DNA of 64,000 nucleotides from a candidate division FCPU426 bacterium (GTDB lineage Bacteria > Oederibacteriota > JAAXVQ01 > JAUVAV01), in assembly GCA_030637655.1 (NCBI GenBank), contig DAOWGI010000005.1:4766-68765 (forward strand), in the 5' to 3' direction. A program made the translations under genes and the position numbers. This document shows, piece after piece, positions 14,726 to 63,115 of this stretch. Numbering within the stretch: the first letter of the stretch is position 1; the number at the start of each line of letters is the position of its first letter. A model generated the notes under the pieces. It searched no databases. It saw only the letters and a program-made list of their open reading frames with translations, and was not told the origin of the DNA.

Positions 14726-16702
14726 GTGAATGGATCCATGCCGGAGTATTGCATTTCTTTGTCTGAAAATAAAAAAATCGCGGTAGCGCCGGGCACTACG
14801 CTGGGAGAAGCCTTAAAACAGCTCAATCCGGCTTTATACGGTAAAGCCTTAGCCATAAAAATCGGAGACCGGTTTTTTGATCTGGCGCGGGAAGTTCCGG
14901 TTGGTGAGAGTCGCATCACAGTCCTGGATTTTGCCTCGCCGGAAGGCCGGGAGGTATTTCGTCATTCCACCGCACATTTGATGGCCGCGGCAGTCAAAGA
15001 ATTGTTCCCGGAAACAAAAGTAACGATTGGTCCTTCCATCAAAGACGGTTTTTATTATGACTTTGACCGGGATACCCATTTTACCCCGGAAAGCCTGGAA
15101 ACCATTGAGAAACGCATGAAAGAGATTGCTCAAAAGAAACTGTCATTTATCAGAAAAGTCGTGTCCAGAGAAGAAGCCCGTGAGTTGTTTGAAAAAACGG
15201 GGGAGACCTACAAGCTTGAATTGCTGGATGCGATTGAACCCGGCCAGGATGTCTCGCTCTATTTTTTAGGAAACTTTGTTGATCTCTGCCGCGGTCCGCA
15301 TATCCCGCACTCCGGCCTGTTAAAAGCATTCAAGTTGCTCTCCGTGGCCGGCGCGTATTGGCGCGGCGATGAAAATAACAAGATGCTGCAACGGATTTAT
15401 GGGATTGGTTTTGAAAAAAATTCGGGTTTAGAAGCATATTTGCAGCGTTTGGAAGAAGCCAAACGCAGGGACCACCGCCGCTTGGGAAAAGATTTGGATC
15501 TTTTTTCTTTTCATGAAGATTCCGGAGCAGGACTAGTGTACTGGCATCCCAAAGGTTCGAAGATTCGCATGCTCATGGAGGATTTCTGGCGAGCAGAGCA
15601 TTTACAGAATGGGTACGAAATTCTCTATACACCGCATATCGGAAAAGCTCAATTGTGGGAGACTTCCGGTCATTTAGCGTTTTATAAGGAATCCATGTAT
15701 GCACCCATGGTTGTTGATGAACTTGATTATTATATCAGACCTATGAATTGTCCTTTTCATATAAAAATATATAAAAGTGATGTGCGCTCCTATCGCCAGT
15801 TGCCAATGCGCTGGGCGGAGTTGGGAACTGTATATCGCTATGAAAAATCCGGCGTTTTGCACGGTTTGTTCCGGGTTAGAGGATTCACTCAGGATGATGC
15901 GCATATTTTCTGCACACACCGGCAATTGGCGGGCGAAATTCAGGAAGTATTGCGATTTGTGCTGTACATTCTAAAAACCTTTGGATTCAAAGAGTATGAA
16001 ATATATCTCTCTACCAAGCCGGAGAAAGATACTGTGGGTAGTGATGAGGTATGGGACCAAGCTACTGAAGCGTTGCGCAAAGCGCTTGAAAATTCAGGCT
16101 TGCCATATGCTGTGGATGAGGGTGGGGGAACCTTTTATGGTCCGAAAGTGGACATAAAAATCAAAGATTGTTTGGATCGAATCTGGCAATGTTCAACCAT
16201 TCAGGTGGATTTTAATTTGCCGGAACGGTTTGATATGAAATATGTTGGTGAAGATGGAAAAGAGCATCGGCCCATCATGATTCATCGGGCCTTAATGGGT
16301 TCCTTGGAGCGCTTCTTCGGAATTATGGTCGAGCATTATGCCGGCGCTTTTCCGGTTTGGCTGGCGCCAGTGCAAGCCAGGATTTGCACTATTGCGGATC
16401 GTCATCAGGAATTTGCCCAAGAAATTGTGAAGCAATTGAAGTCACACGGAATACGCGTTGATATTGATATGAAAAGCGATAAAGTCAATGCTAAAATACG
16501 CAATGCGCAATTAGAAAAGATACCGTACATGCTGGTGGTGGGAGACCGGGAAGTGGAACAGCAGGCAGCAGCCTTGCGGATACGCACCGGAGAAAATCGC
16601 GGTGCCATGCCAATTGAAGAAATCGCGAAATTAATCCAGCGAAAAAACGCGGATAAGGCGCTTGACCTGGTAGAGACGCGATTAATCGCGTCTCTAGATT
16701 AA
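14726..16702 (+). CDS. thrS: threonyl-tRNA synthetase
   Basis: TGS, editing, class II catalytic (HRALMGSLERF) and anticodon-binding regions; last 11 codons and TAA stop lie inside a tandem REP. Confidence 0.9.
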   Translation: MNGSMPEYCISLSENKKIAVAPGTTLGEALKQLNPALYGKALAIKIGDRFFDLAREVPVGESRITVLDFASPEGREVFRHSTAHLMAAAVKELFPETKVTIGPSIKDGFYYDFDRDTHFTPESLETIEKRMKEIAQKKLSFIRKVVSREEARELFEKTGETYKLELLDAIEPGQDVSLYFLGNFVDLCRGPHIPHSGLLKAFKLLSVAGAYWRGDENNKMLQRIYGIGFEKNSGLEAYLQRLEEAKRRDHRRLGKDLDLFSFHEDSGAGLVYWHPKGSKIRMLMEDFWRAEHLQNGYEILYTPHIGKAQLWETSGHLAFYKESMYAPMVVDELDYYIRPMNCPFHIKIYKSDVRSYRQLPMRWAELGTVYRYEKSGVLHGLFRVRGFTQDDAHIFCTHRQLAGEIQEVLRFVLYILKTFGFKEYEIYLSTKPEKDTVGSDEVWDQATEALRKALENSGLPYAVDEGGGTFYGPKVDIKIKDCLDRIWQCSTIQVDFNLPERFDMKYVGEDGKEHRPIMIHRALMGSLERFFGIMVEHYAGAFPVWLAPVQARICTIADRHQEFAQEIVKQLKSHGIRVDIDMKSDKVNAKIRNAQLEKIPYMLVVGDREVEQQAAALRIRTGENRGAMPIEEIAKLIQRKNADKALDLVETRLIASLD

Positions 16703-19856: not shown

Positions 19857-19884
19857 GTAGAGACGCATGATTATGCGTCTCTAC
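19857..19884. repeat. REP-like palindrome gtagagacgcatgattatgcgtctctac
   Basis: perfect 10-bp stems with GTAG/CTAC ends; between two minus-strand genes, abutting the RBS. Confidence 0.65.
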
Positions 19885-49870: not shown

Positions 49871-51655
49871 TTAACCGGCATAATTCCGTTTGAATATTTT
49901 ATCCAGCTCATCCCAGGAAAGGCGAAAAATATAAGGTCTTCCGTGCGGACAGGTCGGCAATCCTTTCAGGGCTCGCATTTGTTTGATGAGTGCCAGCATG
50001 CTTTCCGGTTGCAGGCGTTCTCCGGCTTTCACAGCTGCTTTGCAGGCCATGCTCTGCAAAATTTTTTCTCTAAACTTGTTTTTATCCATCAGCTTACCGG
50101 TCTCAGCCAGCCACTCAATAACCTCATTGACAATGGCAATCAAATCTCCCTGCGGAAATTGATCCGGTTGGGTTTGAATGGTAAAAGTATTGCCGCCCAA
50201 AGGTGATATTTCCAAACCCATCTCAGAAAACAGTTCCCTTGCCTCAGTGAGCAATCCGGTTTGCGAAGGCTTAAGTTCAAACGTTAAAGGCAGCAATAAA
50301 TTTTGCCGGGGCAAGTCCCGTGGCCATTGCAAAAAGGATTCATAAAGAATTCTTTCGTGAACAGCATGTTGATCCACCAGGAAAAAGCCTTGTTCATCTT
50401 GCACGGCAATATAGGTCCGGCCGACCTGACCAATGACACGCAATGCAACTTCCGCGGATGGTTCTTCCCCGATAGGGGCGCGATTAATCGCGCCCCTACC
50501 ATCTATATATGTAGCAATCGATTCTTTCACCCGGTCTTGGGACCAACCCATTGGCAAGGATTGCGGAGAATAAGTAGGGGCGCGATTAATCGCGCCCCTA
50601 CTTGGTTTTTCCTTAGATGTTGAAATATGCAATAAACTCGAGGGTTTACTGCCGGTCAGATCTCCTTGCTGCAGCACATTTTGGATAGTGGTATAAACCA
50701 AATTGTGAATACCATGTTCATCACGCAAACGCACTTCTCTTTTAGCAGGATGCACATTAACATCAACCAGATGATTAGGCATGGTGAAGAACAAATAGCA
50801 GATCGGAAAACGGCCTTCCGGTATTAGTGTCCTATAGGCTTGAATCACAGCATGCGCGATACCACGATGTTCAACCGGGCGTTGATTGATGAAAAAGCGC
50901 ATGCCGAGCCTGGTATTGCGATGATCAGAGGGATTCGCAATTCGTCCTCGAATCCAAATCCCGCCTGCTTCCCTCTCCACTGGCAGCATATTTTGCGGTA
51001 AAGCACTTCCATACAGTGTTGCCAAGCGGTCGGATAATATTTTAGTAGGCGGACAATTAAAAAGTTCACGCCGGTCTACAATCAGTTTAAAACCAACACG
51101 TTTGTGCGCAATAGCGGCCAACTCTACGACTTGTACAATATGGGATTGTTCAGTGGAATGAGTTTTCATAAATTTGCGGCGGGCCGGAGTATTAAAAAAG
51201 AGATCTTCAACAACAATCGTAGTTCCGGCCGCGCAACCGGTTTCGCCTTTTGACGTGATCTTGCCGCCGGAGAGTTTCATGCGAAATCCCACCGATTTTT
51301 TTTCCGGCCGCGTTAAAATTTCCACCTGGGAGACCGCGGCAATGGATGGCAGGGCTTCCCCGCGAAAACCCAAAGTGTCAATATTTTCCAAATCTTCCGC
51401 TTTACTGATTTTACTGGTCGCGTGCCGGGAAAACGCCAATTGGGCATCCTCCACATTCATACCCTGGCCATCGTCAGTCACGCGTATACTTTGGAAACCG
51501 GCACTTTTAATTTCCACTTCAATTCTGGTCGCCTTGGCATCCAGGGCGTTTTCAAGCAACTCTTTAACCACCGCAGCCGGACGTTCCACCACCTCGCCGG
51601 CGGCAATCAGATTGGCAACCTGATCCGATAATATTTTAATATGTGTATTGGTCAT
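49871..51655 (-). CDS. mutL: DNA mismatch repair protein MutL (with two in-frame REP insertions in linker)
   Basis: GHKL ATPase motifs (ELLENALDA, DDGQGM, GFRGEAL) and C-terminal dimerisation domain; linker contains 2x RGAINRAP encoded by REPs. Confidence 0.9.
   Translation of the reverse strand: MTNTHIKILSDQVANLIAAGEVVERPAAVVKELLENALDAKATRIEVEIKSAGFQSIRVTDDGQGMNVEDAQLAFSRHATSKISKAEDLENIDTLGFRGEALPSIAAVSQVEILTRPEKKSVGFRMKLSGGKITSKGETGCAAGTTIVVEDLFFNTPARRKFMKTHSTEQSHIVQVVELAAIAHKRVGFKLIVDRRELFNCPPTKILSDRLATLYGSALPQNMLPVEREAGGIWIRGRIANPSDHRNTRLGMRFFINQRPVEHRGIAHAVIQAYRTLIPEGRFPICYLFFTMPNHLVDVNVHPAKREVRLRDEHGIHNLVYTTIQNVLQQGDLTGSKPSSLLHISTSKEKPSRGAINRAPTYSPQSLPMGWSQDRVKESIATYIDGRGAINRAPIGEEPSAEVALRVIGQVGRTYIAVQDEQGFFLVDQHAVHERILYESFLQWPRDLPRQNLLLPLTFELKPSQTGLLTEARELFSEMGLEISPLGGNTFTIQTQPDQFPQGDLIAIVNEVIEWLAETGKLMDKNKFREKILQSMACKAAVKAGERLQPESMLALIKQMRALKGLPTCPHGRPYIFRLSWDELDKIFKRNYAG
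50470..50498. repeat. REP-like palindrome (ataggggcgcgattaatcgcgcccctac) inside mutL
   Basis: perfect palindrome; in-frame. Confidence 0.7.
50574..50601. repeat. REP-like palindrome (gtaggggcgcgattaatcgcgcccctac) inside mutL
   Basis: perfect palindrome; in-frame. Confidence 0.7.
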
Positions 51656-51672: not shown

Positions 51673-51700
51673 GTAGAGACGCCCAATTTGGGCGTCTCTC
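51673..51700. repeat. REP-like palindrome gtagagacgcccaatttgggcgtctctc
   Basis: same stem family, loop ccaatttgg. Confidence 0.65.
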
Positions 51701-51782: not shown

Positions 51783-51811
51783 GTAGAGACGCCCAATTTG
51801 GGCGTCTCTAC
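51783..51811. repeat. REP-like palindrome gtagagacgcccaatttgggcgtctctac
   Basis: second copy 110 bp downstream. Confidence 0.65.
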
Positions 51812-52121
51812 GTTTGGTGTCCTCACGTTTTTTTCGTCCCCCATCCCCGCGCCTCCTATGTTTTTTATTCAATTGGTATGACAGGAAAAAGAGGATTTTC
51901 TTGCAGGTTATTTTTAATTATCAGGATTGGGTTTTGAGGGAATATTATCTAGAGTCATGATTCATGAGCGTCCCGGAACATGCATTTGCTCCATTTATTG
52001 CCTTCTATCAACTTCCCATACATTGGCTGTTGAACTAGTGAAAAAGCGAACATTGATACTTCCAGGCCCGGAATTTTCGCGTTGAAATTGTTCATATAAA
52101 AAACCTCTTTCATAGTTTACT

Positions 52122-52511: not shown

Positions 52512-53423
52512 TTAAAAATCATCTGGTAATTTAAATACTGTTTCTTTTATTGAAAAATCAACTGAAATATCTTCATCTGGATTTTGTGGTATGTAACTGA
52601 AATATATTTGTTCGGGTCTGAATCTATAATTCCGTTCCTCATTTCCTCTCACATTCACACTAAGTTGATCTGAAATCTTCGCATCTACAATTTCAAAAAG
52701 CTTGCATAGCAACGATTCATCTTCGTTGGACTTTTTCTTATTTAGAGCATCCACAACTTTTATTCTTTTTGAACTGTCCCTATAATGAAAACAGCCATTT
52801 CTAATCAGGTTATTGGCACGTCCAAATAATCTTCCGACCATCTTTTGCATTTTCTTTTTATCCATCCTGGGATAGCTTTTAATTTTATCTTTGCATTTAT
52901 CACATAATTTTATTTTTTTACACTCATCACAAAGTATCTCTTTTTGATCTTTTCCAACAATCCTTTCACACTCTAACCATAAATTCCTGAAAGCATCTAC
53001 CGAGGTAGTTGAATTATTCGCTAACCACAGGTAAAACAATTCTTCCTTTTTTTGACCCCATGTTTTTTCAATATCTGAAATATTTGTTAAAAAGATATAA
53101 CGAGGATTTTTCGAATAACTCATTTCAATACCATGACGCATAGCTTTCCCTGGCTCGCTCTTTATTATGAACCGGATCGCTTTTATTTGAATAGGAAAAG
53201 ATAATATAAACGAAACAGATTGCAGCCAATCTAACAGGTCGCCATCAATTATTTTTTGTGTTTCATCACTAGACTTGGCTTCAAAATCAAGATAAATTTG
53301 CAATACTCCATTTTGATTGTTTTGATTAGGTATTGTAATTATTACATTTCCATTTTTAAATATATGCTCAAAATTTGTTTTTAATCTCGTTTCTAAGTCA
53401 ACCACAATTCTGTATTTATTCAT
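52512..53423 (-). CDS. Abi-like protein with putative HEPN (R-x4-H) motif and zinc ribbon
   Basis: 303 aa, AT-rich codon usage; CDECKKIKLCDKCKDK (2x CxxC) and LIRNGCFHY (R-x4-H); lies downstream of AbiE pair. Confidence 0.35.
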   Translation of the reverse strand: MNKYRIVVDLETRLKTNFEHIFKNGNVIITIPNQNNQNGVLQIYLDFEAKSSDETQKIIDGDLLDWLQSVSFILSFPIQIKAIRFIIKSEPGKAMRHGIEMSYSKNPRYIFLTNISDIEKTWGQKKEELFYLWLANNSTTSVDAFRNLWLECERIVGKDQKEILCDECKKIKLCDKCKDKIKSYPRMDKKKMQKMVGRLFGRANNLIRNGCFHYRDSSKRIKVVDALNKKKSNEDESLLCKLFEIVDAKISDQLSVNVRGNEERNYRFRPEQIYFSYIPQNPDEDISVDFSIKETVFKLPDDF

Positions 53424-53532
53424 ACATCACCATTTTTAATTTGTCATTGCCTGTGCCCTCTGGGTACGAGGTGCATTTTACCGAAGCAATCTCAAAAACG
53501 AAAAATAGATGGCTTCTGCGCTGCACACAACA

Positions 53533-54450: not shown

Positions 54451-55073
54451 ACGATTGCTTCCATGTACGGACGCATGGTCTTGGTCACCCGGCAGATCTT
54501 AGCATACTTCCATAGCTCATCAGTCGAGCGCTTTCGGCCACGCAAAAATTCTCTGAGCGCTTCGAGCGCAACGTCAAGCCCGATCTTGTTCCTGTACTTG
54601 AAGCAGTCTGCCACGGTCTTGGCGGGGTTGTAGATTCTGACCTGTACGCCTTCAATAGTGTGCTCATCGATACCGTCGGTAAGTGCCTTACCAGAGAAAC
54701 GAACAATCCGTGTTTTGGGGTGCCTCGCTCGCGGACGCGCGGCCCTCCGGTTGAGAGCCATCCAGACTTTGTGAGGAGCCTGTGTTCCGATTTCGTGGAA
54801 ACGAAGGGCGGAGAGCAAGCATATTACCCCCTTGGGAACAGCCTTTACCGCCTGCGCTAGTCCGTGGTAAGCTGTTACATCGGCATCCGGCAGACTATAC
54901 AGCCCACGACCATCGCGCACGAGTTTTCCTTTAGCGCACATCTGCCGCAGGTACTCATGGTGAATCCCGTGTGAACGCACCTCGGCTGTGCTCAAAACAC
55001 CTGTATTGCGAGCGAGTTCCAGTATCTGCCCTGTCTTTCCGCCGCTTTTTTTCATATGCGTAATTATATTCAT
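54447..55073 (-). CDS. abiEi: AbiEi-family antitoxin / transcriptional regulator
   Basis: ~200 aa wHTH + C-terminal domain; 4-bp overlap with abiEii. Confidence 0.7.
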   Translation of the reverse strand: MNIITHMKKSGGKTGQILELARNTGVLSTAEVRSHGIHHEYLRQMCAKGKLVRDGRGLYSLPDADVTAYHGLAQAVKAVPKGVICLLSALRFHEIGTQAPHKVWMALNRRAARPRARHPKTRIVRFSGKALTDGIDEHTIEGVQVRIYNPAKTVADCFKYRNKIGLDVALEALREFLRGRKRSTDELWKYAKICRVTKTMRPYMEAIV

Positions 55074-55160
55074 TTTCTAATAAATGTCAATAGTTTAGCA
55101 AAAAGAAATTCGGTGGTGCTGGAGCATTCACTTTGCGTAACTATTCACACTTTTCCGGCC

Positions 55161-55583
55161 CTAAAATGTTGCACTTCTGCTTACAATTCGCCCTTCATCC
55201 AGTTTGGCGATATGCTTTTCAAATTCAAAATGATCAATGATTTCACGAGCGCGTTTGGAAAAACTCTTAATATAATGGCTGAGATTTTTTGTAATATTGG
55301 CAGGCTCACCCTTTAATTTATCAAATGTGAATTTGCTAATGTTATGGAATGATTGACTAGCAACCCGGTTTAAAACCGGTTCAAGATTCTTTACTTTACT
55401 GCTCTTGATGCTTTGGTATTTGGCCAGCACCTTTTCTTTGGTAGGTTCCAACACACAATCCAAACGCCTTAAAACCGTCATTGGCAGTATAACATCTTTG
55501 TATTTTGGTTCGGTCGGTAGGGACCCACGTAATAAATCCTCTACCTGCCATATAAAACTAACTTTTTCGTTAAAATTGTTCAT
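55161..55583 (-). pseudogene. N-terminal fragment of type I restriction-modification N6-adenine methyltransferase (HsdM N-domain)
   Basis: SFIWQVEDLLRG...YKDVILPMTVLRRLD matches HsdM_N; ORF stops after 140 aa, methylase catalytic domain absent. Confidence 0.55.
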
Positions 55584-55587
55584 TAAG

Positions 55588-55615
55588 GTAGGGAACAGGC
55601 ATGCCTGTTCCCTAC
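55588..55615. repeat. REP-like palindrome gtagggaacaggcatgcctgttccctac
   Basis: perfect palindrome with GTAG/CTAC ends. Confidence 0.6.
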
Positions 55616-55699: not shown

Positions 55700-55727
55700 G
55701 TAGGGAACGGTCGCGACCGTTCCCTAC
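55700..55727. repeat. REP-like palindrome gtagggaacggtcgcgaccgttccctac
   Basis: same stem as 55588 copy, different loop. Confidence 0.6.
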
Positions 55728-62882: not shown

Positions 62883-63115
62883 GTAACAGGTCAGTGAAGT
62901 GCTGTGTTTTGTCAAATAACCCGGAAACATAATCCGGATAAACCGGAACTAAAAAGGTATATTCACCGCAGAGGACGACACATGGATTGTTCTATGTAGA
63001 GACGCGATTAATCGCGTCTCTACAGTTTTTATCCCATCTTTCGGAGGCAAGTCGCGTCCCTGGGAAAAAATAAATTAGCAGACCATATGTCTTTCTCGCT
63101 TCACTGATATGTTAC
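62883..63115. mobile_element. MITE (family B) with TGTAACAGGTCAGTGAAG / CTTCACTGATATGTTACA termini, containing a REP
   Basis: 17-bp TIRs; internal 45 nt shared with 24861 and 31302 copies; REP at 62996..63023. Confidence 0.55.
62996..63023. repeat. REP-like palindrome gtagagacgcgattaatcgcgtctctac
   Basis: identical unit to thrS 3' REP. Confidence 0.7.

What the first reader, a model, noticed from the sequence alone, without database searches (positions are those of the whole stretch)
52512..53423. 303-aa ORF beside AbiE carries an R-x4-H (HEPN-like) motif and a double CxxC zinc ribbon
The protein has no obvious family assignment. It contains LIRNGCFHY, an R-N-x3-H arrangement like the catalytic motif of HEPN RNases (the Abi_2/AbiD/AbiF, RnlA and Cas13 class), and CDECKKIKLCDKCKDK. 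It is strongly AT-biased relative to neighbouring genes and sits 110 bp downstream of the AbiEii nucleotidyltransferase toxin. It is a candidate stand-alone abortive-infection or RNase effector, possibly a diverged member of the lactococcal Abi_2 family. This is the most plausible novel defense gene in the window.
Basis: inference. Interest (0 to 1): 0.55.

Follow-up and report, generated by a model that had tools for sequence, protein, structure and literature searches.

The report
Half-size ApeA-like HEPN defence protein
This orphan 303-aa gene belongs to a very rare, unnamed protein family whose catalytic core matches that of ApeA, a bacterial antiviral RNase that cuts tRNA, so it is probably a compact stand-alone RNA-cutting defence or toxin gene that current annotation tools miss.

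Summary
The ORF (52512-53423, minus strand, 303 aa), both motifs, the AT bias and the 109-nt gap to AbiEii are all real. No Pfam, NCBIfam, PADLOC or PHROGs model recognises the protein. Exhaustive searches of about 15 billion proteins and the contig collections found roughly nine distant lineages (18-25% identity). All full-length members keep E153, one CxxC pair and R-[N/Q/H]-x-x-F-H. A family profile searched against all PDB sequences hits only ApeA antiviral proteins (E = 7e-5 with the variable Cys loop removed, 0.012 unedited). The family's Arg and His align with ApeA's catalytic R502/H507 and its Glu with ApeA's LWIA(L/I)E helix. Reciprocal hhalign against ApeA homologs gives E about 2-5e-4, well above shuffled controls. 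The protein is half ApeA's length and lacks ApeA's N-terminal ligand-pocket domain. It has no conserved neighbour gene. The AbiE and RidA adjacency is incidental, and it is not an Abi_2 member. The double CxxC is a lineage-variable insert. Best reading: a compact, mobile, single-gene ApeA-like HEPN RNase, probably an abortive-infection or toxin effector. Structure prediction was too weak to confirm the fold. Activity, target and trigger remain untested.

The parts
52512..53423 (-). Complete coding sequence of the 303-aa protein (ATG at 53423-53421, TAA at 52514-52512); identical to MCK5243277.1 'hypothetical protein KAR34_12585 [bacterium]'
   Evidence: Six assemblies of the same population carry it with identical DNA.
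53109..53423 (-). N-terminal alpha/beta domain (residues 1-105) with invariant G92 and R96 in an 'ILKSEPGxxxR' strand. Possible counterpart of ApeA's Mid domain (tentative).
   Evidence: AF2 model with a 7-sequence alignment: strands 2-11, 20-24, 27-31, 40-49, helix 52-74, strands 79-88, 96-102, block pLDDT 65-87. Invariant columns. hhalign family 25-165 <-> ApeA 233-381 with a 2-sequence ApeA profile, not retained with a 4-sequence profile.
52950..53042 (-). First HEPN block (residues 128-158): helices carrying F145, L150 and the invariant acidic residue E153 ('F-x-x-L-W-L-x-x-E')
   Evidence: Invariant columns. Aligns to ApeA 'LLNLWIA(L/I)ESL' (Ec2ApeA 345-382, Ec3ApeA 789-826).
52893..52931 (-). 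Cys cluster C165-x2-C168-x5-C174-x2-C177 (putative small metal-binding loop), inserted between the Glu helix and the catalytic helix. Only C165 and C177 are family-invariant.
   Evidence: The model places a hairpin (158-161/184-187) here. Only weak zinc-finger-type library hits.
52785..52802 (-). Predicted catalytic HEPN motif R208-N-G-C-F-H213
   Evidence: R, F and H are conserved in every member that covers the region. It aligns to ApeA 'R-T-R502-N-L-I-V-H507'. The ApeA R502A mutant chain scores 5.7 bits lower than wild type against the family profile. It lies at the end of model helix 189-212.
52665..53072 (-). Whole helical HEPN-like region (about residues 118-253)
   Evidence: Helices 115-122, 130-137, 141-156, 189-212, 217-230, 238-253 in the model, block pLDDT 32-67. 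Profile of this region against PDB gives only ApeA hits.
52539..52613 (-). C-terminal strands (residues 271-295) including the conserved 'D-F-P' segment; probably pack back onto the N-terminal sheet
   Evidence: Strands 271-279 and 290-295, with pLDDT 74-80 for residue blocks 271-290. Conserved DFP column.
53424..53532 (-). 109-nt spacer between abiEii and the ORF, with a GGTGAT Shine-Dalgarno-like site 5 nt before the ATG. No consensus promoter and no convincing terminator, so read-through from abiEi-abiEii is possible.

Best explanation
The gene encodes a compact, horizontally mobile, single-protein HEPN ribonuclease whose catalytic domain is a distant homolog of the HEPN domain of the antiviral protein ApeA. 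Shown: family-wide invariance of E153, R208 and H213, and their alignment to ApeA's Glu helix and catalytic R502/H507. Shown: absence of any conserved partner gene, and residence in foreign-looking DNA beside other defence, TA or mobility genes. Inferred by analogy with ApeA and HEPN enzymes generally: two subunits dimerise through the helical domain to form a composite R-x4-H active site. That site would cleave RNA without metal (ApeA cuts host tRNA anticodon loops), stopping translation and aborting phage infection or acting as an addiction toxin. Inferred: the about 105-residue N-terminal alpha/beta domain, plus the C-terminal strands, keeps the nuclease off until a trigger appears. The protein lacks ApeA's about 200-residue N-terminal domain, which forms the deoxydinucleotide-sensing pocket, so the trigger and its binding site must differ from ApeA's. 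Inferred: the Cys loop between the Glu helix and the catalytic helix binds a structural metal. This would be comparable to the non-conserved Zn site at the ApeA dimer interface, possibly shared between subunits in members that have only two Cys.
For: 1. The family exists and is under constraint. The exhaustive phmmer search found 5 distant relatives; further members came from metagenome and genome scans. Invariant columns are M1, G92, R96, F145, L150, E153, C165, C177, with R208, F212 and H213 in all members covering that region. pN is well below pS.
2. HEPN criteria from PMC3710099 are met at sequence level: R-x4-H with a polar residue after R, an upstream conserved acidic residue in the preceding helix pair, and an insert between those helices and the motif helix. 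The motif sits at the end of a helix in the AF2 model.
3. The profile of the helical region against 177,635 PDB sequences gave 7 hits at E <= 10, all ApeA. The best was 9hxj Ec3ApeA at E = 7e-5, with Ec2ApeA at 4e-4, in two colinear blocks covering the Glu helix and the catalytic motif. The R502A mutant chain scores 5.7 bits lower. The unedited full-length profile has a single PDB hit, again ApeA, at E = 0.012.
4. Reciprocal hhalign against bona fide ApeA homologs (verified) scored 38.8, E = 2.3e-4, probability 44%, against shuffled controls of 15.7 +/- 2.6 (max 22.2) and 17.8 +/- 3.1 (max 27.7). With 4 ApeA sequences E = 4.6e-4.
5. Sub-threshold hits point the same way: P0003 to the HEPN family DUF4145 at E = 0.008 over model positions 6-77 of 88, and P0005 to PADLOC RTasHEPN at E = 0.04 on the motif.
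6. The gene is a solo, mobile unit. Neighbours share no homology. Gene GC is below its flanks in most loci. Contexts include AbiE plus an HsdM remnant, a TrwC relaxase, a RelE/MqsA-like pair and a PD-(D/E)xK-like gene.
7. ApeA's mechanism is documented: single-gene abortive infection, tRNA anticodon-loop cleavage, HEPN dimers, loss of function in R502A (bioRxiv 10.64898/2026.01.26.701840).
Confidence: 0.6

Rival explanations
1. It is a non-catalytic or differently acting MauJ-like protein. The family would be a distant relative of MauJ (PF17419), the uncharacterised product of methylamine-dehydrogenase gene clusters, and would share MauJ's unknown, possibly regulatory or chaperone-like role rather than being a nuclease.
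For: The family consensus hits the Pfam MauJ model at E = 7e-4 to 2e-4 (20.9-22.6 bits), and P0004 and P0003 hit it individually at E about 0.04-0.05. An annotated Methylobacterium MauJ itself scores only 16 bits on that model. hhalign of the family against 6 MauJ sequences scored 27.6, E = 0.006, colinear over about 235 columns at a low MAC threshold. Shuffled controls reached at most 18.6 and 21.1 (0 of 300 reached the real score). Lengths are similar (287-309 aa against 303-335 aa).
Against: All scores are below Pfam's cut-off of 28 bits, and hhalign probability is 6%. MauJ lacks the CxxC, the Glu and the R-x4-H, and its 'MLIHSG' His is not invariant. No family member lies in a mau cluster. 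MauJ shows no similarity to ApeA (score 12.8) or to any PDB chain. Strict invariance of E, R and H in the family argues for catalysis. This rival is compatible with MauJ being an inactivated offshoot of the same fold.
Confidence: 0.12
2. It is a third, accessory component of the adjacent AbiEi/AbiEii system. For example, it could be a HEPN partner of the AbiEii nucleotidyltransferase, analogous to HEPN/MNT toxin-antitoxin pairs in which the nucleotidyltransferase modifies the HEPN toxin.
For: It has the same orientation, lies 109 nt downstream of abiEii, and has no consensus promoter or strong terminator in between. In L013 a family member overlaps by 4 nt the end of a 522-aa gene with a Pol-beta NTase domain (NTP_transf_2, 22.5 bits against a cut-off of 21), so 2 of about 10 loci have an NTase immediately upstream. 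HEPN-MNT pairing is a known theme (PMC3710099; PMC7641770, abstract only, listed).
Against: None of the other 9 loci has AbiEi or AbiEii. The closest relative of the L013 gene (P0004, 62% identity) has an unrelated upstream gene. All-against-all BLAST of neighbours finds no shared partner. GC3 is 0.26 against 0.58-0.63 for the AbiE genes, indicating separate origins. AbiEi/AbiEii is a complete two-gene system with its own perfect promoter.
Confidence: 0.06
3. It is a diverged member of the lactococcal Abi_2 (AbiD/AbiD1/AbiF) HEPN family.
For: It shares an R-N-x3-H type motif and a defence-island context.
Against: No member hits Pfam Abi_2 or the PADLOC AbiD/AbiF models at E <= 10 or E <= 1. 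The only significant relatives with solved structures are ApeA proteins. The architecture (N-terminal alpha/beta domain, Cys loop) is unlike Abi_2.
Confidence: 0.03
4. It is a zinc-dependent nucleic-acid-binding protein or DNA nuclease in which the Cys cluster is the functional centre and the R...H pair is structural.
For: The invariant CxxC pair (C165/C177) and the four-ligand cluster in 4 of 10 members. Weak zinc-finger-type library hits on the loop.
Against: Most members have only two Cys. The loop length is variable, and deleting it improves the match to ApeA. In ApeA the zinc sites are non-conserved and judged structural. No nuclease family other than HEPN is detected.
Confidence: 0.07

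Closest known systems
ApeA (single-gene HEPN antiphage system; PDB 9HXI, 9HXJ, 9HXM, 9HXN; 'ApeA/BMEI1217' HEPN family of Anantharaman et al. 2013)
   Same: The HEPN core is shared. The 'LW(L/I)A(L/I)E' helix with the conserved Glu and the '(Y/W)(K/R)xR-N-x-(I/V)-(V/F)-H-(S/T/G)-G' catalytic motif align colinearly. ApeA is the only PDB family hit, at E = 7e-5, and reciprocal hhalign gives E about 2-5e-4. Both are single-gene units without a conserved partner and occur on mobile DNA or in defence contexts. In ApeA a metal site occurs in some members only; in this family the number of Cys/His ligands in the loop likewise varies between members.
   Different: It is half the size (303 aa against about 590 aa). 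It lacks ApeA's helical N-terminal domain (Ec2ApeA 1-198), which forms the deoxydinucleotide-binding activation pocket. About 100 residues of ApeA between the two HEPN blocks are replaced by a 12-23-residue Cys loop. It has extra C-terminal beta strands. It is not detected by the Pfam or PADLOC ApeA models. Correspondence of its N-terminal domain to ApeA's Mid domain is only tentative. Oligomeric state, target and trigger are unknown.
Other HEPN families: DUF4145 (PF13643), minimal HepT toxins, Abi_2/Swt1 clade
   Same: [quoted passage not shown] P0003 reaches DUF4145 at E = 0.008 over most of the model.
   Different: All hits are below the curated thresholds. There is no MNT antitoxin partner. 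The N- and C-terminal beta elements and the Cys loop are additional.
MauJ (PF17419), uncharacterised protein of methylamine-utilisation clusters
   Same: Similar length. Weak colinear similarity in both the N-terminal alpha/beta part and the first helices, above shuffled controls.
   Different: MauJ has no CxxC, no conserved Glu and no R-x4-H. It is always found in mau operons of Alphaproteobacteria. Scores are below Pfam's cut-off, and there is no similarity to ApeA.
AbiE (AbiEi/AbiEii type IV toxin-antitoxin / abortive-infection system)
   Same: Physically adjacent in this window and in the same orientation.
   Different: There is no homology and no co-occurrence elsewhere, and base composition differs sharply. 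AbiE is complete without it.

Membership tests
HEPN superfamily (defined in PMC3710099) | R-x4-6-H motif, with the residue after R typically polar (N, D, H) | tested here: met
   R208-N-G-C-F-H213. The motif is R-[N/Q/H]-x-x-F-H in every member covering the region.
HEPN superfamily (defined in PMC3710099) | Second conserved acidic residue upstream, in helix 2 (often E-x3-[K/R]) | tested here: met
   E153 is invariant in 10 of 10 members, lies in model helix 141-156, and aligns with the Glu of ApeA LWIA(L/I)ES. The x3-[K/R] extension is not conserved.
HEPN superfamily (defined in PMC3710099) | [quoted passage not shown] | tested here: inconclusive
HEPN superfamily (defined in PMC3710099) | Metal-independent RNase activity | not testable with these tools
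   Needs biochemistry.
ApeA | HEPN_ApeA-type catalytic domain | tested here: met
   Family profile against PDB: only ApeA chains hit, at E = 7e-5 (loop deleted) and 0.012 (unedited). hhalign against verified ApeA homologs gives E = 2.3e-4 and 4.6e-4, above all shuffles.
ApeA | Recognition by the curated ApeA models (Pfam HEPN_Apea/ApeA_NTD1, PADLOC ApeA) | tested here: not met
   No hit for any member at permissive thresholds.
ApeA | N-terminal domain (Ec2ApeA 1-198) forming, with the HEPN domain, the conserved ligand-binding activation pocket | tested here: not met
   The protein is 303 aa. The alignment to ApeA starts at about ApeA residue 233, so nothing corresponds to ApeA 1-230.
ApeA | Mid domain (Ec2ApeA 199-309) | tested here: inconclusive
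   Family 25-105 aligns to ApeA about 233-330 with the 2-sequence profile (probability 44%), but the confident alignment shrinks to the HEPN block with the 4-sequence profile.
ApeA | Single-gene system with no obligatory partner | tested here: met
   No homologous neighbour across the loci compared by BLAST; gene contexts of all ten loci.
ApeA | Decameric/dodecameric ring, tRNA anticodon-loop cleavage, activation by 5'-phosphorylated deoxydinucleotides | not testable with these tools
   Properties reported for ApeA in bioRxiv 10.64898/2026.01.26.701840.
Abi_2 (AbiD/AbiD1/AbiF, PF07751) | Match to the Abi_2 / AbiD / AbiF profiles | tested here: not met
   No hit in Pfam or PADLOC for any member or the consensus.
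AbiE system | Conserved co-occurrence with AbiEi and AbiEii | tested here: not met
   0 of 9 other family loci carry AbiE genes. GC3 is 0.26 against 0.58-0.63.
MauJ (PF17419) | Score at or above Pfam's gathering threshold (28 bits) | tested here: not met
   Best 22.6 bits for the consensus and about 15 bits for single members.
MauJ (PF17419) | Location in a mau (methylamine dehydrogenase) operon after mauC | tested here: not met
   All MauJ genes found lie in mau clusters. No family member does.
Zinc ribbon | Two CxxC (or C/H) knuckles giving four metal ligands, conserved across the family | tested here: inconclusive
   The query has C-x2-C-x5-C-x2-C. The same geometry occurs in L016, and similar ones in P0003 and P0005, but 6 of 10 members keep only one CxxC. 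The spacing is shorter than in classical zinc ribbons, and metal binding is untested.

The most novel reading that the evidence does not exclude
This family would be a previously unrecognised minimal 'mini-ApeA' class of single-protein immune RNases. It keeps ApeA's HEPN core (and possibly its Mid domain) but has dispensed with the deoxydinucleotide-sensing N-terminal domain. It would therefore sense infection through a different trigger or site, perhaps through the invariant CxxC (metal- or redox-dependent, possibly shared across the dimer) or through the small alpha/beta domain. A corollary is that MauJ of methylamine-utilisation operons would be a catalytically dead offshoot of the same lineage.
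Probability: 0.25. Interest if true: 0.6.

Novelty: new variant of a known kind. Interest (0 to 1): 0.45.

Why it matters
ApeA has only just been explained mechanistically: tRNA anticodon cleavage switched on by deoxydinucleotides bound in a pocket built from its N-terminal and HEPN domains. A natural half-size relative that lacks the pocket-forming domain poses a clear question: how is a HEPN RNase of this lineage kept silent and then triggered without that sensor? At 303 aa it would also be a small, tractable scaffold. It further shows that current defence-finding models (PADLOC, Pfam, NCBIfam) miss an ApeA-related family that is extremely rare, at about ten lineages in roughly 15 billion proteins. 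Finally, it offers a first, tentative evolutionary handle on MauJ, a protein of unknown function in methylamine-utilisation operons.

Tried and rejected
1. RidA link. The ridA start lies 12 nt after the ORF's stop, and a 'RiboL-PSP-HEPN' family is named for such associations (PMC3710099). No relative has a RidA neighbour, and ridA has host-like GC, so I rejected this as incidental.
2. AbiE third component. Rejected; see the rival explanations.
3. Abi_2 membership. No model hits.
4. Direct library scans (Pfam, NCBIfam, PADLOC, PHROGs) of the protein, of every member, of the consensus and of isolated helical regions gave only sub-threshold hits: MauJ, DUF4145 and RTasHEPN.
6. tblastn of the protein or the consensus against plasmids and phages found nothing. 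The viral-contig scan found nothing. The genome scan with the single protein found nothing.
7. The word-indexed protein searches returned only the query itself plus two members, P0004 and P0007.
8. Population variation: all six assemblies carry identical sequence, so this was uninformative.
9. Island boundaries. The paired GTAG...CTAC palindromes flanking the segment turned out to be a genome-wide REP-like repeat, not insertion scars.
10. Conserved partner search by all-against-all BLAST of neighbours found none.
11. The HEPN paper's supplement holds only links, no alignments. No searchable literature on MauJ was found.
12. MauJ against ApeA and MauJ against PDB gave no signal.
Full report
OBSERVATION. 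The minus-strand ORF 52512-53423 encodes 303 aa. It contains LIRNGCFHY (R208...H213) and CDECKKIKLCDKC (C165, C168, C174, C177). In shuffles of the protein's own residues, R-x4-H alone is common (P = 0.15), R-[NQH]-x3-H is not (P = 0.02), and a double CxxC within 20 residues is rare (P = 0.00035). Gene GC is 0.309 (GC3 0.26). Flanking host genes (ridA, mutL, miaA) are at 0.46-0.47 and the abiEi/abiEii pair at 0.54-0.55. AbiEii (Pfam 1.3e-49, PADLOC 1.2e-118), AbiEi and a truncated 140-aa HsdM N-terminal fragment lie upstream, and RidA lies immediately downstream. The gap to abiEii is 109 nt. The ridA ATG is 12 nt after the ORF's stop.

NO FAMILY ASSIGNMENT; AN EXTREMELY RARE FAMILY. Pfam, NCBIfam, PADLOC and PHROGs give nothing for the protein. 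The word-indexed search of 5.8 billion clusters returns only the protein itself, MCK5243277.1, a hypothetical protein from an uncultured-bacterium MAG. It recurs with identical DNA and identical context in six assemblies of one population. An exhaustive phmmer run over 1.84 billion representatives found five distant relatives of similar length, at E = 1e-4 to 8e-4 and 25-29% identity. A metagenome scan and a genome scan added L013, L014/L017, L015/L016 and L018, the last from an Acidobacteriales MAG. Plasmid, phage and viral collections gave nothing. In the 10-sequence alignment the invariant columns are M1, G92, R96, F145, L150, E153, C165 and C177. R208, F212 and H213 are present in every sequence that covers that region. 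Between members, pN (0.25-0.43) is far below saturated pS (0.78-0.85). By contrast, only one Cys pair is invariant. The second pair sits in an 11-residue insert found in the query, L016, P0003 and, as His, P0005.

CONTEXT: A SOLO, MOBILE GENE. No relative is next to RidA or AbiE. All-against-all BLAST of the neighbours finds no shared partner. Contexts include a TrwC relaxase/helicase directly upstream in L018 (Pfam 4e-85), a RelE-like/MqsA-like pair in L011, and a PD-(D/E)xK-like gene in L006. In L013 a 522-aa gene with a Pol-beta NTase domain overlaps the family gene's start by 4 nt. The family gene has lower GC than its flanks in most loci, by 13 points here, 14 in L008 and 8 in L010/L011. 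One lineage (P0006) is split, with the family's C-terminal tail in the next ORF. In the window, the three adjacent segments (HsdM remnant at GC 0.37, AbiE at 0.54, this ORF at 0.31) have different compositions. This indicates separate acquisitions in a defence hot spot. abiEi has its own perfect TTGACA-16-TATAAT promoter. The 109-nt spacer before the ORF has no consensus promoter or strong terminator, so read-through is possible.

THE DECISIVE LINK: ApeA. Scanning the isolated helical regions and an hmmemit consensus against Pfam produced no HEPN hit, but gave an unexpected sub-threshold hit to MauJ. After deleting the variable Cys loop, P0003 hit the HEPN family DUF4145 (E = 0.008, model positions 6-77 of 88) and the consensus hit MauJ at 2e-4. 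A profile of the loop-deleted helical region (A10) searched against all 177,635 distinct PDB sequences returned seven hits at E <= 10. All seven were ApeA antiviral proteins: Ec3ApeA 9hxj at E = 7e-5, Ec2ApeA 9hxi/9hxd at 4e-4, and Ec4 and Ec1 more weakly. The alignment has two colinear blocks. The first pairs 'lalrwlrlalrsrtvldrFvflWLalErlaG' with 'FLRSIQLHSMALKSENVENQLLNLWIALESLVP'. The second pairs 'afkdiwklRnkvFHg' with 'QLRRIYRTRNNIVHSG'. Counting along Ec2ApeA, the family's Arg falls on R502 and its His on H507. R502A abolishes ApeA defence (bioRxiv 10.64898/2026.01.26.701840). As an internal control, the deposited R502A chain scores 5.7 bits lower than wild type against my profile. The unedited full-length profile also has exactly one PDB hit, Ec3ApeA at E = 0.012, with the same blocks, so the result does not depend on my loop deletion. 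Reciprocally, I fetched two 592-aa Bacillus thuringiensis plasmid proteins and verified them as ApeA homologs (E = 1e-27 and 2e-24 over the full length). hhalign of the full family alignment against them scored 38.8 (E = 2.3e-4, probability 44%) over family 25-165 <-> ApeA 233-381. Column-shuffled controls gave 15.7 +/- 2.6 (max 22.2) and block-shuffled controls 17.8 +/- 3.1 (max 27.7). Adding Ec2 and Ec3 sequences kept the Glu-helix block (E = 4.6e-4, probability 33%), with the catalytic block as the next alternative, but dropped the extension into ApeA's Mid domain. That extension is therefore tentative.

WHAT ApeA DOES, AND WHAT DIFFERS HERE. According to the 2026 preprint, ApeA is a single-gene abortive-infection system. 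Its HEPN domain cleaves host tRNAs in the anticodon loop. Monomers (N-terminal domain 1-198, Mid 199-309, split HEPN 335-583 in Ec2ApeA) dimerise through the HEPN core and assemble into decameric or dodecameric rings. [quoted passage not shown] Some homologs hold a non-conserved, presumably structural Zn2+ at the dimer interface. A second preprint reports cleavage of RNA-phage genomes (10.64898/2026.03.20.713152, abstract). The present family shares the HEPN core and the solo-gene lifestyle. It is half the length and has nothing corresponding to ApeA residues 1 to about 230. It replaces about 100 residues between the two HEPN blocks with a 12-23-residue Cys loop and adds C-terminal strands. 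It cannot sense ligands the way ApeA does.

MECHANISM PROPOSED. Shown: conserved E/R/H aligned to ApeA's catalytic residues, a solo mobile gene, and a defence or mobility neighbourhood. Inferred: a HEPN dimer forms a composite R-x4-H site and cleaves RNA without metal, probably tRNA or another translation-related RNA, giving growth arrest or abortive infection, or acting as an addiction toxin. Inferred: the small alpha/beta domain with the C-terminal strands acts as the regulatory module. Inferred: the CxxC loop binds a structural, possibly inter-subunit, metal. I put the probability that the helical domain is homologous to the ApeA HEPN domain at about 0.8. For the whole statement (active RNase acting as a defence or toxin effector) I give about 0.6.

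RIVALS. A MauJ-like non-catalytic role has some support. The family and MauJ show weak colinear similarity above shuffles: Pfam 20.9-22.6 bits against a cut-off of 28, and hhalign 27.6 against a maximum of 21.1 in 300 shuffles. However, MauJ lacks every catalytic-looking residue and shows no similarity to ApeA or to any PDB chain. At most, MauJ is an inactivated cousin. An AbiE accessory role, Abi_2 membership and a zinc-centred function are each disfavoured, as detailed in the rival explanations.

NOVELTY AND VERDICT. The suggested Abi_2 affiliation, the AbiE link and the 'zinc ribbon' emphasis are not upheld. This is a new, very rare variant of a known kind (ApeA-type HEPN defence proteins) that curated models do not detect. 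Interest is moderate. Its value lies in being a natural minimal ApeA-like protein without the known sensor domain, and in the tentative link to MauJ.

Noticed in passing
window 16671-16696, 19857-19884, 50473-50498, 50572-50603, 51675-51699, 51783-51811, 55588-55615, 55700-55727, 62995-63024: A dispersed family of 25-32-bp perfect palindromes, most with (G)TAG...CTA(C) ends (REP-like). They often occur as doublets 110-112 nt apart (REPIN-like). Two doublets happen to bracket the ridA-to-HsdM-fragment segment.
   Followed up: partly
window 50473-50498 and 50572-50603 (inside mutL, 49871-51655, minus strand): Two of these palindromes lie inside the mutL reading frame, in frame. Each encodes 'RGAINRAP' in the MutL linker region, which looks like a repeat element tolerated within a coding sequence.
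   Followed up: no
window 55161-55583 (-) and 51955-52113 (-); repeat 52072-52095 / 55560-55583: A 140-aa ORF is only the N-terminal domain of a type I methyltransferase (HsdM_N, 4.9e-23), i.e. a truncated remnant. A 24-nt direct repeat (83% identical) shows that a small ORF just downstream of ridA starts with the same 'MNNFN.K.' codons. This suggests a rearranged or duplicated hsdM 5' end flanking the segment.
   Followed up: partly
window 55063-55090 (-): A perfect sigma-70 consensus promoter (TTGACA-16 nt-TATAAT, 12 of 12) lies immediately upstream of abiEi. Its -10 element overlaps the longest-ORF start, so the real AbiEi start is probably the downstream Met giving the 202-aa product called in public annotations.
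   Followed up: no
L013:1393-2961 and L013:2958-3626: In one metagenomic relative, a 522-aa gene with a Pol-beta nucleotidyltransferase domain (NTP_transf_2; weak PADLOC 'oligonucleotide cyclase' hits) overlaps the family gene's start by 4 nt (ATGA). This could be a lineage-specific NTase-HEPN pairing.
   Followed up: partly
L011:1192-1824 and L011:1858-2175 (also L010, L012): P0006 is a split copy of the family gene. The first ORF stops just before the R-x4-H position, and the next ORF encodes the family's C-terminal 'DFPED...GFSLLNM...W' tail. It is a decaying copy present in three samples.
   Followed up: partly
L018:5140-7899 and L018:7995-8987: In an Acidobacteriales MAG the family gene sits about 90 nt downstream of a TrwC-type relaxase/helicase gene (Pfam 4e-85), i.e. 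on a conjugative or mobilisable element.
   Followed up: partly
L019-L024 (mauJ genes of Paracoccus, Methylobacterium, Indioceanicola plasmids): Pfam's MauJ model (PF17419) covers only the C-terminal helical half of MauJ and is narrow: an annotated Methylobacterium MauJ scores 16 bits against a 28-bit cut-off. MauJ shows weak but above-shuffle similarity to the family studied here.
   Followed up: partly
L025:1555-3333 and L026:1564-3342 (Bacillus thuringiensis plasmids pBMB267, pBT1850294): Full-length ApeA homologs (E = 1e-27 to Ec3ApeA) are annotated only as 'hypothetical protein'. They lie next to xerS recombinase and TnpB/Rpn transposase-like genes on Cry-toxin plasmids.
   Followed up: partly
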